In this document: piece by piece, positions 52,101 to 54,756 of the stretch
How positions within the stretch are numbered: position 1 is the first letter of the stretch
Layout of the letters: every line of letters starts with the position of its first letter
Source of the DNA: Escherichia coli
GTDB lineage: Bacteria; Pseudomonadota; Gammaproteobacteria; Enterobacterales; Enterobacteriaceae
Assembly: GCF_003991155.1 (NCBI RefSeq)
Contig: NZ_CP031293.1
Direction: 5' to 3' (one strand)
DNA: 64,000 nt
Position numbers: made by a program

Positions 52101-54756
52101 CTGTAGCACGCCTTTTTTATCTTCGACGTGCGCAGATACGCATTATTCTTTCGCCGGACAGCCATGCTCACTAAACGGCCCAATCATAACCAACGGCCCG
52201 AGATATTTCGGCTGGCGATGGAGGATTTTCGCATCAATCACCGCGCTGACTCTGGCAAGTTTTTCCCGCAGTTGAGTATATAAACCGTGTTTCATATTCA
52301 GGTCTGGCGCGTTAAAACCGATAGCATCGATACCATACTGTTTTGCCAGCCAGATGGCGCGTTGGTTATGAAATTCTTGCGAGATAATGGTGATATAGTT
52401 TTCACTAAACACCTTGTTGGCACGCACCACCGAATCAAGCGTTGAGAATCCGGCATAGTCGCAGAAGATCACTTTTGCCGGTACGCCTTTAGCGATCAAG
52501 GCTTGCTGCATTCCTGACGCTTCATCGTAATTTTTACGTCCATTATCGCCGCTCACCAATAGCCATTTCACTTTTCCGGCGTGGTACAACTCTGCGGCGC
52601 TATCAATACGTCGGGTAAAGTAGCGATTACCCGGCCTCGCCCCCAGCAATAAACCCACGTTCCGCGCCGGAACTGCGTTGACATCGCTCCAGGTCAGTTG
52701 TTGGCTGGCGTTGACCATAACGCGATCGGCAATAAAAAGGGTTGCTCCTGCTATAAGCAACAATAAACAGCCAATTTTAAGAGTCCGGCGAGAAAAACAA
52801 ATACGGAGAAGAAGGCGGGCAAATACGCGCAGCATGGTCGTTATCCTTAACGAAAGGGGGGAGGTCGATTTTAGGCGCTATAGGAAGAAAAGATAACGCC
52901 TGACATCATTTTCAGATTTTGTCCTGCCCAAGCGACAACTGCGTTAGCCACAGCCGGGTGTCGAACTCAAGCTGGTGGTACTGGGGTTCCATATGGCAGC
53001 ACAACTGGTAAAACGCTTTGTTATGCTCTTTCTCCTTCAGGTGCGCCAGCTCGTGCACCACGATCATGCGCAAAAACGGTTCCGGCGCGTTGCGAAACAC
53101 GGTAGCGACGCGGATCTCCGCCTTTGCTTTCAGCTTGCCGCCCTGCACACGCGAAACAGCGGTATGTAACCCGAGCGCGTTTTTCAGCACATGGATCTTG
53201 TTGTCATACATCACTTTAGTGATCGGCGGGGCATTGCGCAGAAACTGATTTTTAAGATCCTGAGTATATTGCCAGAGGGCTTTATCGGTGGCGTAGTCGT
53301 GTGTTCCCGGATAACGTTTTGCCAGCACATCGCCCAGACGCTGTTCGTTAATCAGCGTTCGCACCTGGGAAAGTAGCTGCTCGGGATAACCCTGAAGATA
53401 AGTAAGATTGCTCATAACCGCCCACGAAAAAGAGAAAAAGGGTATACTCACGCACCCTTTTCAGGGGCAACGTCGAAATTTTATCACTCAGGAGGGCCGA
53501 TGAGCCACTTAGACAACGGTTTCCGTTCACTGACACTACAACGTTTTCCGGCGACGGATGACGTTAACCCGCTACAGGCGTGGGAAGCGGCGGATGAATA
53601 TTTGCTGCAACAGTTGGACGACACAGAAATCCGCGGCCCGGTGTTGATCCTGAATGATGCCTTTGGTGCGTTAAGTTGTGCGCTGGCGGAACATAAGCCA
53701 TACAGCATTGGCGACTCATACATCAGCGAACTGGCGACGCGCGAGAATTTACGCCTCAACGGGATTGATGAGTCGAGCGTGAAGTTTCTCGACAGCACCG
53801 CCGACTACCCGCAACAGCCGGGCGTGGTACTGATCAAAGTACCGAAAACACTGGCGTTGCTGGAACAACAACTGCGAGCGCTGCGCAAAGTGGTCACGCC
53901 GGATACACGTATTATTGCCGGTGCCAAAGCCCGTGACATCCACACTTCCACGCTGGAACTGTTCGAAAAAGTGCTCGGCCCGACCACCACCACGCTGGCA
54001 TGGAAGAAGGCACGCTTAATTAACTGTACTTTCAACGAGCCGCCGCTGGCCGATGCGCCGCAAACCGTTAGCTGGAAACTGGAAGGTACTGACTGGACTA
54101 TCCACAACCATGCGAATGTCTTCTCCCGCACCGGGCTGGATATTGGCGCGCGCTTCTTTATGCAGCATCTGCCAGAGAATCTCGAAGGTGAGATTGTCGA
54201 TCTCGGTTGTGGTAATGGCGTTATTGGTCTGACGCTGCTTGATAAAAACCCGCAGGCGAAAGTGGTGTTTGTCGATGAATCGCCGATGGCGGTTGCTTCC
54301 AGCCGTTTGAACGTTGAAACCAACATGCCAGAGGCGTTGGATCGCTGCGAGTTTATGATTAACAACGCGCTCTCCGGCGTGGAGCCTTTCCGCTTTAATG
54401 CTGTGCTCTGCAACCCGCCGTTTCATCAGCAACATGCGCTGACCGATAACGTCGCCTGGGAGATGTTCCACCACGCCCGCCGCTGTCTGAAAATCAACGG
54501 CGAGCTGTATATCGTTGCCAACCGTCACCTGGATTACTTCCACAAACTGAAGAAAATTTTCGGCAACTGCACCACCATCGCCACGAATAATAAATTTGTG
54601 GTGCTGAAAGCAGTGAAGCTGGGGCGTCGTCGGTAAGATTGGCAGCTACCTGCCAGATAAGGCGTAAACGCCTTATCTGGCATACGTTCAGCACATTACC
54701 CCCAGGTCGGATAAGACGCGGCAAGCGTCGCATCCGGCACTTCAATGCACAATTTA

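What the first reader, a model, noticed from the sequence alone, without database searches (positions are those of the whole stretch)
54637..54753. No higB-higA toxin-antitoxin pair between rlmG and fadH; only REP-like repeats
In K-12, as I recall, the HigB-HigA module (ygjN-ygjM) lies between fadH and rlmG. Here the interval is only 117 bp and consists of REP-like palindromes. The locus is therefore a presence/absence polymorphism for a TA module, with REP sequence marking the empty site.
Basis: partly seen in the sequence, partly recalled or inferred. Interest (0 to 1): 0.4.

Follow-up and report, generated by a model that had tools for sequence, protein, structure and literature searches.

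The report
Empty higBA toxin-antitoxin site, REP-mediated deletion
This E. coli strain lacks the small HigB-HigA toxin-antitoxin gene pair that K-12 carries between rlmG and fadH; about a fifth of E. coli genomes share this ordinary, known kind of gene loss, and the loss most likely happened by recombination between short repeated palindromes flanking the pair.

Summary
rlmG (53500-54636, +) and fadH (54754-56772, -) converge on a 117-bp spacer. The spacer holds two REP palindromes in opposite orientation, 54648-54685 and 54705-54739. K-12 MG1655 carries higB-higA at this spot.

Among 5,426 complete E. coli genomes:
- about 52% have higB and higA;
- about 28% have an intact higA next to a 5'-truncated higB;
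- about 0.5% have an internally deleted higB;
- about 19% have no higA anywhere. The window belongs to this class.

The matching strain's chromosome has no higBA-like DNA elsewhere.

The REP pair does not mark emptiness, because occupied alleles carry it too. In E. whittamii and E. coli O158:H23 a second copy lies on the other side of the module. Deleting in silico between the two GCATCCGGCA copies of the O158:H23 allele reproduces the window's 117-bp spacer exactly. A second empty junction, found in 47 genomes, points to an independent deletion.

Orthologous higBA modules occupy the same site in Kluyvera, Citrobacter, Pseudocitrobacter and another genus. Their divergence tracks that of the flanking genes, so the module is old here and the empty state is derived.

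This is a textbook decaying chromosomal toxin-antitoxin locus, like ccdO157. Interest is low.

The parts
53500..54636 (+). rlmG (23S rRNA m2G1835 methyltransferase), left flanking core gene; stop codon at 54634-54636
   Evidence: ORF of 378 aa. Annotated as rlmG in the 100%-identical strain 2016C-3878.
54637..54753 (.). 117-bp convergent spacer; the empty higBA site
   Evidence: It aligns to the K-12 (1055-bp) and strain 104 (731-bp) spacers with one clean gap.
54648..54685 (+). REP1 (Y-type REP by my reading). Perfect palindrome arms at 54651-54665 / 54668-54682. The stem starts 14 nt after the rlmG stop codon.
   Evidence: Inverted repeat I1, 15 nt, 100% complementary. The REP regex also hits three other window sites. 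Hairpin in the MFE fold. Sub-threshold naRNA4 hit.
54705..54739 (-). REP2 (Z2-like by my reading), in opposite orientation to REP1, so that together they form a BIME-like pair. On the fadH mRNA strand the hairpin starts 14 nt after the fadH stop codon.
   Evidence: Sequence. Hairpin in folds of both strands. Conserved in all E. coli alleles.
54730..54739 (.). GCATCCGGCA, the 3' arm of REP2. This is the inferred deletion junction: occupied alleles carry this 10-mer (or the 9-mer GCATCCGGC) once on each side of the module.
   Evidence: Alignment A1. Junction table. In-silico deletion between the two copies in the O158:H23 allele L106 gives a product 100% identical to window 54637-54753.
54740..54753 (.). 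Right flank CTTCAATGCACAAT between REP2 and the fadH stop codon. It is identical to the sequence that follows the right-hand REP2' in the occupied O158:H23 allele.
54754..56772 (-). fadH (2,4-dienoyl-CoA reductase), right flanking core gene
   Evidence: ORF of 672 aa. Annotation of L001.

Best explanation
Window 54637-54753 is the deleted (empty) allele of the chromosomal higB-higA toxin-antitoxin locus. The module lay between rlmG and fadH before E. coli diverged. REP/BIME palindromes sat in both of the spacers it created, so the module was bracketed by direct repeats of REP sequence. Recombination or replication slippage between the left REP2 and the right REP2' removed the module. The crossover fell in the shared 10-nt arm GCATCCGGCA. 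One REP1-REP2 pair was left between the two convergent genes. The deletion allele then spread, and was moved among lineages by homologous recombination, alongside alleles at other stages of decay. The REP pair that remains probably acts as the 3'-end hairpins of the rlmG and fadH mRNAs.

Shown directly: the allele series, the repeat positions, the exact in-silico product, and the absence of the module elsewhere.

Inferred: the direction of the event (deletion rather than insertion), the recombination mechanism, and the role of the REPs in the mRNAs.
For: 1. K-12 carries higA-higB between fadH and rlmG. The window and about 19% of genomes do not.
2. In occupied alleles the same REP1-REP2 pair lies left of higB, and GCATCCGGC recurs right of higA.
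3. In E. whittamii a complete second REP1'-REP2' pair follows higA. In E. coli O158:H23 and strain MEW a near-complete one does. K-12's small palindrome GCCGGATGCGTTGCATCCGGC reads as that second pair collapsed internally.
4. Deleting 764 bp between the two GCATCCGGCA copies of the O158:H23 allele gives a 117-bp spacer 100% identical to the window's. The same operation on the O157:H7 full allele gives a product 3 mismatches from the empty allele of TUM2330.
5. A second empty junction, 110 bp with a K-12-type right flank, occurs in 47 genomes. This points to an independent deletion.
6. Intermediate decay states keep higA intact. One is a 324-bp deletion of the promoter and higB codons 1-79, with the same junction in four backgrounds. 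Another is an internal higB deletion.
7. Orthologous modules lie at the same site in E. whittamii, Kluyvera, Citrobacter Ct235, Citrobacter sp. 18056, Pseudocitrobacter and Enterobacteriaceae bacterium RIT691. The HigA identity matrix has the same ordering as the RlmG and FadH matrices. This argues for long residence at the site rather than recent insertion.
8. No transposase or integrase is present in the occupied E. coli, Kluyvera or Citrobacter Ct235 alleles (gene tables).
9. The module is single-copy and chromosomal. It is absent from the rest of the chromosome of the matching strain and of all 39 other best-matching genomes.
Against: - About 60 of the roughly 75 informative Enterobacteriaceae species have rlmG and fadH directly adjacent. 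An old module therefore requires many independent losses. Insertion into an originally empty site is formally the mirror image of the same junction.
- A 10-nt direct repeat flanking an insert also resembles a target-site duplication.
- The flanking genes are mosaic. For example, there are 14 mismatches in fadH bases 100-200 between the window and the O158:H23 allele. No extant allele can therefore be called the literal progenitor.
- The allele counts rest on BLAST coverage thresholds and are approximate. At least one truncated allele was merged into the 'empty' count (H48).
- The genome-contig scan did not return K-12, E. fergusonii or Salmonella, so outgroup sampling is incomplete.
- No experiment supports the recombination mechanism or any role of the REPs in the mRNAs.
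Confidence: 0.75

Rival explanations
1. The empty arrangement is ancestral in E. coli and in the family. On this view higBA is a small islet that inserted into the REP/BIME of the rlmG-fadH spacer, by REP-targeted or Campbell-type integration, and duplicated REP sequence at its ends. The window then simply never received it.
For: Most Enterobacteriaceae species have adjacent rlmG and fadH. REPs are documented targets for insertion sequences (PMC1525189, listed; PMC3184786). The insert is bracketed by a 9-10-nt direct repeat. More distant HigBA homologues (58-60% identity) sit at other chromosomal sites, so the family does move over long time scales. Other cargo occupies the same spacer in other species.
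Against: The right-hand repeat is a whole second BIME in E. whittamii and nearly so in O158:H23. It is not a short target duplication. Modules at this site in six genera diverge in step with the flanking genes. No mobility gene is present. There are two different empty junctions. The toxin-first decay intermediates fit loss, not gain.
Confidence: 0.15
2. The window's lineage did not undergo the deletion itself. It acquired the empty allele by homologous recombination (transduction or conjugation) from another E. coli lineage, replacing an occupied allele.
For: The flanks are mosaic. The window is nearly identical to the truncated-allele strain 104 over rlmG (9 differences in 1100 bp) and the first 200 bp of fadH, and diverges further in. 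The same truncation junction occurs in distant backgrounds, including O111:NM, A33 and strain 104. K-12's HigA protein, WP_000560266.1, is encoded by all four truncated alleles examined. This shows that alleles of this locus travel by recombination. Empty alleles occur on both K-12-like and window-like left flanks.
Against: This concerns how the allele spread, not how it arose, so it complements the main explanation rather than excluding it. No donor or tract endpoints were defined.
Confidence: 0.4
3. The absence is an assembly or sampling artefact: the repeat collapsed during assembly.
For: REP repeats can confuse assemblers.
Against: About 1,049 independent complete genomes lack higA entirely. 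The 40 best matches to the window's fadH (39 of them at 100% identity) all lack it. The junction is identical across many strains.
Confidence: 0.01

Closest known systems
E. coli K-12 higBA (ygjNM) type II toxin-antitoxin locus
   Same: Same chromosomal site, between rlmG and fadH. The left REP pair and both flanks are homologous.
   Different: The window has neither gene. K-12 HigB is a translation-dependent mRNA interferase, and its operon has a single HigA-repressed promoter (PMC2814082). None of that sequence is present here.
Orphan higA at fadH-rlmG in CFT073 and NRG857c
   Same: It is already published that K-12 and HS carry complete HigBA at the fadH-rlmG spacer, whereas NRG857c and CFT073 carry only higA (PMC7232551). 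This corresponds to the truncated allele seen here in about 28% of genomes.
   Different: The window is one step further along: higA is gone as well. The papers read here did not describe the fully empty allele or its junction.
Decay of the chromosomal ccdO157 toxin-antitoxin system between folA and apaH (Mine et al. 2009, as summarised in PMC3184786)
   Same: A chromosomal TA pair sits between two core metabolic genes. It is intact in some strains, defective in others and absent in others, and about half of the isolates carry a REP sequence in the variable spacer.
   Different: The TA family is different (CcdAB versus HigBA). Here the deletion end points can be placed inside the REP arm and the product reproduced exactly in silico. 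The original paper was not available to read.
REP/BIME elements of enterobacteria
   Same: Imperfect GC-rich palindromes of about 35 nt, lying outside genes at their 3' ends, in pairs of opposite orientation. The same motif occurs elsewhere in the window.
   Different: Nothing unusual. The window's REP1 is a perfect palindrome owing to paired changes relative to K-12. The Y/Z2 typing is my reading from memory of the BIME literature and was not tested.
Deletions between short direct repeats in E. coli (RecA-independent)
   Same: Excision of a segment bounded by short direct repeats without a dedicated recombinase (PMC5426353).
   Different: Here the mechanism is only inferred from sequence. The repeats range from 10 nt (exact) to about 34 nt (31/34) or about 95 nt, depending on the progenitor allele, so a RecA-dependent event is equally possible.

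Membership tests
REP/BIME repetitive extragenic palindromes | GC-rich imperfect palindrome of about 30-40 nt with GCCGGAT...ATCCGGC-type arms | tested here: met
   REP1 arms at 54651-65 / 54668-82 are 100% complementary. REP1 matches the REP regex; shuffles gave 0 matches. REP2 has the sequence GGTCGGATAAGACGCGGCAAGCGTCGCATCCGGCA. Both form hairpins in the MFE folds.
REP/BIME repetitive extragenic palindromes | Dispersed in many copies through the genome, outside genes, typically just 3' of genes | tested here: met
   Three further copies in the 64-kb window. Extra matching places per genome in the E. coli collection: median 3 places for the 197-nt query. Here both REPs start 14 nt from a stop codon.
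REP/BIME repetitive extragenic palindromes | BIME organisation: Y and Z type REPs alternating in orientation, with defined linker motifs | tested here: inconclusive
   The opposite orientation of the two REPs is seen directly. The Y/Z2 assignment and linker motif are from my memory of the BIME classification. No curated model was available, and Rfam has only naRNA4, hit at 26-31 bits against a gathering score of 59.5.
HigBA type II toxin-antitoxin module (K-12 ygjNM type) | ORF with the HigB_toxin domain (PF09907) | tested here: not met
   K-12 HigB matches PF09907. tblastn finds no HigB in the window. No higBA-like DNA elsewhere on the matching chromosome at blastn 'distant' sensitivity.
HigBA type II toxin-antitoxin module (K-12 ygjNM type) | Adjacent HTH antitoxin gene higA and a HigA-repressed promoter with palindromic operators | tested here: not met
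   No HigA by tblastn in the window. No promoter-like site in 54300-55100. The K-12 promoter TTGCCA-16-TATCAT lies in sequence that is absent here.
Decaying chromosomal TA locus (ccdO157-like presence/defective/absence series) | The same site between conserved core genes is occupied in some strains and empty in others | tested here: met
   about 52% full, 28% truncated, 19% without higA, among 5,426 genomes.
Decaying chromosomal TA locus (ccdO157-like presence/defective/absence series) | Intermediates in which the toxin is inactivated while the antitoxin stays intact | tested here: met
   higB 5' deletion with intact higA. higB internal deletion with intact higA. In-frame stop in higB of Citrobacter sp. 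18056.

The most novel reading that the evidence does not exclude
The rlmG-fadH convergent spacer could be a REP-driven cassette-exchange hotspot across Enterobacteriaceae. It holds higBA, DUF1266-higA, a DUF3289+DUF943 pair, or expanded BIME arrays in different species. Cargo is usually bracketed by two copies of that species' own REP type. If the REP pairs, perhaps with the host REP-associated transposase, actively mobilise or excise such cassettes rather than merely offering homology, this would be a general recombinase-free route of small-islet turnover.
Probability: 0.12. Interest if true: 0.5.

Novelty: already known. Interest (0 to 1): 0.18.

Why it matters
The finding matters little in itself. 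It is one more accessory-gene difference between E. coli lineages, and variation of higBA at this site is already published. Its modest value is as a clean worked example. At a single locus one can see every stage of chromosomal toxin-antitoxin decay: intact, toxin-dead with antitoxin kept, and gone. The final deletion can be placed to the nucleotide inside a REP arm. This supports the view that REP/BIME repeats which colonise the ends of genes also promote loss of whatever lies between them. In practice, higBA-based inferences from K-12 (persistence, stress response) do not transfer to about half of E. coli strains: roughly 19% lack the locus and roughly 28% lack the toxin.

Tried and rejected
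1. I first read the 14-19 nt between REP2 and the fadH stop codon (GCAC versus TAAC variants) as specific to empty alleles, and so as evidence for an ancient, never-occupied haplotype. I rejected this when the occupied O157:H7 and O158:H23 alleles showed the same flank.

2. The intrinsic-terminator and promoter scans of the spacer found nothing. The REPs are therefore not canonical Rho-independent terminators.

3. Rfam gave only sub-threshold naRNA4 hits, so no known RNA gene is present.

4. The RefSeq MG1655 annotation lists no REP features for the region, so REP identity could not be taken from annotation.

A Python regex replaced it.

6. Mine et al. 2009 (PMC2666520) is not held in the library. 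It is cited only through PMC3184786.

7. The literature search for the reported effect of REPs within 15 nt of stop codons did not return the primary paper. That point stays a recollection.

8. The genome-contig scan with RlmG did not return K-12, E. fergusonii, E. marmotae or Salmonella. Those outgroups remain unchecked.

9. The junction query was meant to count empty alleles exactly, but BLAST joined at least one truncated allele (H48). 1,093 is therefore an upper bound, and the estimate used is the 1,049 genomes without higA.

Full report
**Observation.** The ORF list places rlmG at 53500-54636 on the + strand and fadH at 54754-56772 on the - strand.

The spacer contains two palindromes.
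- REP1 has perfectly complementary 15-nt arms at 54651-54665 and 54668-54682.
- REP2 (GGTCGGATAAGACGCGGCAAGCGTCGCATCCGGCA) lies at 54705-54739 in the opposite orientation.

Several results support the REP assignment. A regular expression for REP arms that matches REP1 also matches sites at 28629-28660, 28702-28731 and 33052-33081 in the window, and matched nothing in 200 shuffles. The spacer folds far better than shuffled controls, at -53.9 kcal/mol with z = -6.85. Both hairpins appear in the folds of both strands. Rfam returns only sub-threshold hits to naRNA4, which as I recall is a REP-derived model: 26-31 bits against a gathering score of 59.5. Simple scans find no sigma-70-like promoter and no intrinsic terminator in 54300-55100.

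**The K-12 recollection.** In NC_000913.3 the gene order is fadH (b3081), higA (b3082), higB (b3083), rlmG (b3084).

**What the E. coli population shows.** A 1.5-kb query across the site matches 5,423 of 5,426 complete genomes. It matches in spans of about 1,501, 2,115 or 2,439 bp. Fetching examples gave the following alleles.
- Full allele: K-12-type O16:H48 strain, L002, with a 1055-bp spacer.
- Truncated allele: only the last 78 nt of higB remain next to an intact higA. Seen in strain 104, L003, with a 731-bp spacer. The same allele occurs in MDR_56, O111:NM and A33.
- Empty allele: the window itself and L001, L005, L007, L009, L090-L092.

Specific queries gave these counts among the 5,426 genomes.

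| Query | Genomes |
|---|---|
| higA present | 4,377 (80.7%) |
| The 321-bp promoter and higB 5' segment matched | 2,848 |
| That segment covered at 80% or more | 2,823 |
| Contiguous empty junction | at most 1,093 |

The junction count is an upper bound, because at least one truncated allele (H48) was merged into it. The resulting estimate is about 52% full, about 28% 5'-truncated higB with higA, about 0.5% other partial forms, and about 19% with no higA at all.

The module is single-copy and chromosomal in essentially all genomes.

Published work already notes that K-12 and HS carry complete HigBA at the fadH-rlmG spacer, whereas CFT073 and NRG857c carry an orphan higA (PMC7232551).

**Is the module elsewhere in this strain?** I built a chimeric query: 1,901 nt of the window's fadH followed by the reverse complement of K-12 higBA, so that the two parts could not be joined into one place. 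I ran it with sensitive blastn.
- The chromosome that is 100% identical to the window (NZ_CP029747.1, strain 2016C-3878) shows one place only, which is fadH.
- The same holds for all 39 other best-matching genomes.
- Across the collection there are 9,802 places in all. That equals about 5,420 fadH places plus about 4,380 higBA places. Genomes with the empty site therefore do not, as a rule, carry the module somewhere else.
- Only two places in the whole collection are on plasmids. The plasmids of this particular assembly were not examined individually.

**Anatomy of the junction.** Aligning the three alleles shows that the whole left 105 nt of the window's spacer (REP1, linker, REP2) is also present in occupied alleles, directly upstream of the higB promoter region. 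The REP pair therefore does not mark emptiness.

The 938-bp (full) or 614-bp (truncated) extra segment is bracketed by GCATCCGGC. On the left this is the 3' arm of REP2. On the right it is the 3' arm of a small palindrome, GCCGGATGCGTTGCATCCGGC, which follows the higA stop codon.

Three other alleles explain that small palindrome.
- In E. whittamii (L013) higA is followed by a complete second REP1'-REP2' pair. The module there is flanked by direct repeats of about 95 bp.
- In E. coli O158:H23 CFIAFB20140388 (L106) and strain MEW (L107) a nearly complete second pair is present. The sequence that follows it, CACTTCAATGCACAAT, is identical to the window's right flank.
- K-12's small palindrome is the 5' arm of REP1' fused to the 3' arm of REP2'. 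It is the second pair after an internal collapse.

Deleting in silico the 764 bp between the two GCATCCGGCA copies of L106 gives a 117-bp spacer 100% identical to window 54637-54753. The same operation on the O157:H7 full allele gives a product 3 mismatches from the empty allele of TUM2330.

A second kind of empty allele also exists. It was first seen in PapM-32-1 (L006) and has a 110-bp spacer. It joins the 5' part of REP2 to the small palindrome and keeps the K-12-type right flank. Its junction is found in 47 genomes, including ETEC O169:H41 strains. That is most simply an independent deletion.

**Direction of the event.** An RlmG-based scan of one genome per species returned 80 loci.
- In about 60 species the two genes are directly adjacent, with gaps of -3 to about 140 bp. 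These species belong to Enterobacter, Citrobacter, Kluyvera, Raoultella, Lelliottia, Buttiauxella, Cedecea and related genera.
- higBA homologues lie at exactly this site in E. whittamii (98% and 97% amino-acid identity for HigB and HigA), Pseudocitrobacter faecalis (69% and 83%), Citrobacter sp. 18056 (62% and 72%) and Enterobacteriaceae bacterium RIT691 (68% and 72%).
- A HigB protein search with context look-ups added Kluyvera (82%) and Citrobacter sp. Ct235 (78%) at the same site.
- Homologues at 58-60% identity lie at other sites: zntA-tusA in Cedecea and asmA-like/cdh in Rahnella.

The homology includes about 190 nt upstream of higB. The pairwise HigA identities order the taxa in the same way as RlmG and FadH do. 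No mobility gene accompanies the module (gene tables).

I therefore infer that the module is old at this site and that the empty state in E. coli is derived.

This inference has a cost. It requires many losses across the family. An insertion into a REP would be the formal mirror image of the same junction. I keep that reading as a rival at about 0.15.

**Spread.** The flanking genes are mosaic. The window differs from the truncated-allele strain 104 at only 9 of the last 1,100 nt of rlmG and 1 of the first 200 nt of fadH, and then diverges. The identical truncation junction is found in distant backgrounds. The HigA protein WP_000560266.1, which is K-12's, is encoded by all four truncated alleles examined. 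Empty alleles occur on both K-12-like and window-like left flanks. Alleles of this locus are evidently moved between lineages by homologous recombination. The window's lineage may therefore have inherited or imported the deletion rather than generated it.

**How it most likely works.** REPs settle just 3' of genes.

Once higBA lay between rlmG and fadH there were two such niches, and both carry the local REP type in several species:
- E. whittamii and E. coli;
- Citrobacter Ct235;
- Pseudocitrobacter and RIT691.

The unrelated DUF3289+DUF943 cassette in Enterobacter sp. kpr-6 is bracketed in the same way.

These repeats supply homology of 10 to about 95 nt in direct orientation. Recombination or slippage between them removes the module and leaves one REP pair.

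Deletions between short direct repeats without a dedicated recombinase are documented in E. coli K-12 (PMC5426353). REP-containing variable spacers around a decaying TA system are described for ccdO157 between folA and apaH (PMC3184786).

The order of decay seen here is toxin or promoter lost first, antitoxin kept, then everything lost. This is what is expected, because a cell cannot survive losing the antitoxin first.

In the empty allele each REP starts 14 nt after a stop codon, that of rlmG on one strand and that of fadH on the other. The two REPs therefore probably form the 3'-terminal hairpins of the two convergent mRNAs. I recall a report that REPs within about 15 nt of a stop codon lower expression through ribosome stalling. 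I could not retrieve that paper, and this point is untested.

**Verdict.** The phenomenon is ordinary and of a known kind. Novelty is 'already known' and interest is low, about 0.18. The only mildly new elements are the nucleotide-level reconstruction of the deletion, the multi-state decay series with frequencies, and the evidence that the module has been at this site across several genera.

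Noticed in passing
L003:2238-2968 (strain 104); also L008, L096, L097: About 28% of E. coli genomes carry an intact higA next to a higB reduced to its last 78 nt. The 324-bp deletion (K-12 L002 about 2433-2756) also removes the only mapped, HigA-repressed promoter (PMC2814082). No promoter-like site remains upstream. The HigA protein is identical to K-12's in four distant backgrounds. How, or whether, this orphan antitoxin is expressed is unclear.
   Followed up: partly
L106:1829-2709 (E. coli O158:H23 CFIAFB20140388); L107 (strain MEW): A further decay allele, probably in about 25 genomes. higB is internally deleted, leaving 36 codons. The two operator palindromes are collapsed into one and the -10 box is lost. 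higA is intact. A near-complete second REP pair lies to the right of higA.
   Followed up: yes
L011:5333-6130 (Escherichia sp. MOD1-EC7003); L010:about 1830-1860 (E. albertii NBRC 107761): In these Escherichia lineages, and in 2 of 5,426 genomes labelled E. coli, higB and its promoter are replaced exactly up to the higA ribosome-binding site by a 265-aa DUF1266 protein. The left junction is also different. In the E. albertii type strain this gene appears to be interrupted after about 7 codons by what I read as an IS10-like end. The protein family is very narrow, with 4 clusters found. It could be a toxin swap or an unrelated insertion.
   Followed up: partly
L062:5138-6717 (Enterobacter sp. 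kpr-6): The same rlmG-fadH spacer holds a different two-gene cassette: DUF3289 (YPO3983 family, 286 aa) plus DUF943 (175 aa). Enterobacter-type REP hairpins flank it on both sides.
   Followed up: partly
L033:5138-5594 (Citrobacter youngae); L034, L064: In several species the spacer is expanded to 370-460 bp by five to seven tandem copies of a REP/BIME unit and carries no genes. This convergent spacer is a REP accumulation site across the family.
   Followed up: no
window 54651-54682 compared with L002:2251-2282: REP1 differs from the K-12 copy by paired changes that keep or improve the stem. GCCGGATGCGGCG...CGCCTTATCCGGC becomes GCCAGATAAGGCG...CGCCTTATCTGGC, which makes a perfect palindrome. 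The same variant occurs in O157:H7, 042 and strain 104.
   Followed up: partly
window 54637-54650 and 54740-54753: Both REP hairpins begin exactly 14 nt from the stop codon of the gene they follow (rlmG and fadH). In occupied alleles the small palindrome after higA keeps the same 14-nt distance from the fadH stop codon, so the deletion preserved the layout of the fadH 3' end.
   Followed up: no
L074:5302-5673 (Citrobacter sp. 18056): The higB orthologue at the same site carries an in-frame stop codon (…LTHR*YDVF…) and an altered start, while higA is intact. This is toxin-first decay in another genus.
   Followed up: no
L102:3501-4219 (Cedecea davisae); L104:3501-4219 (Rahnella sp. AA): HigBA homologues of 58-60% identity sit between other core genes: zntA-like/tusA in Cedecea and asmA-like/cdh in Rahnella. 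They keep the same paired TTGCCA...TGGCAA operator palindromes upstream.
   Followed up: partly
window 54854-54953 compared with L106:2810-2909: fadH is strongly mosaic among strains. There are 14 mismatches in one 100-nt bin between the window and the O158:H23 allele, next to bins with 0-1 mismatches. This indicates recombination tracts ending close to the locus.
   Followed up: no
window 28629-28731 and 33052-33081: Other canonical REP copies in the window: a pair at 28629-28660 / 28702-28731 and a single copy at 33052-33081.
   Followed up: no
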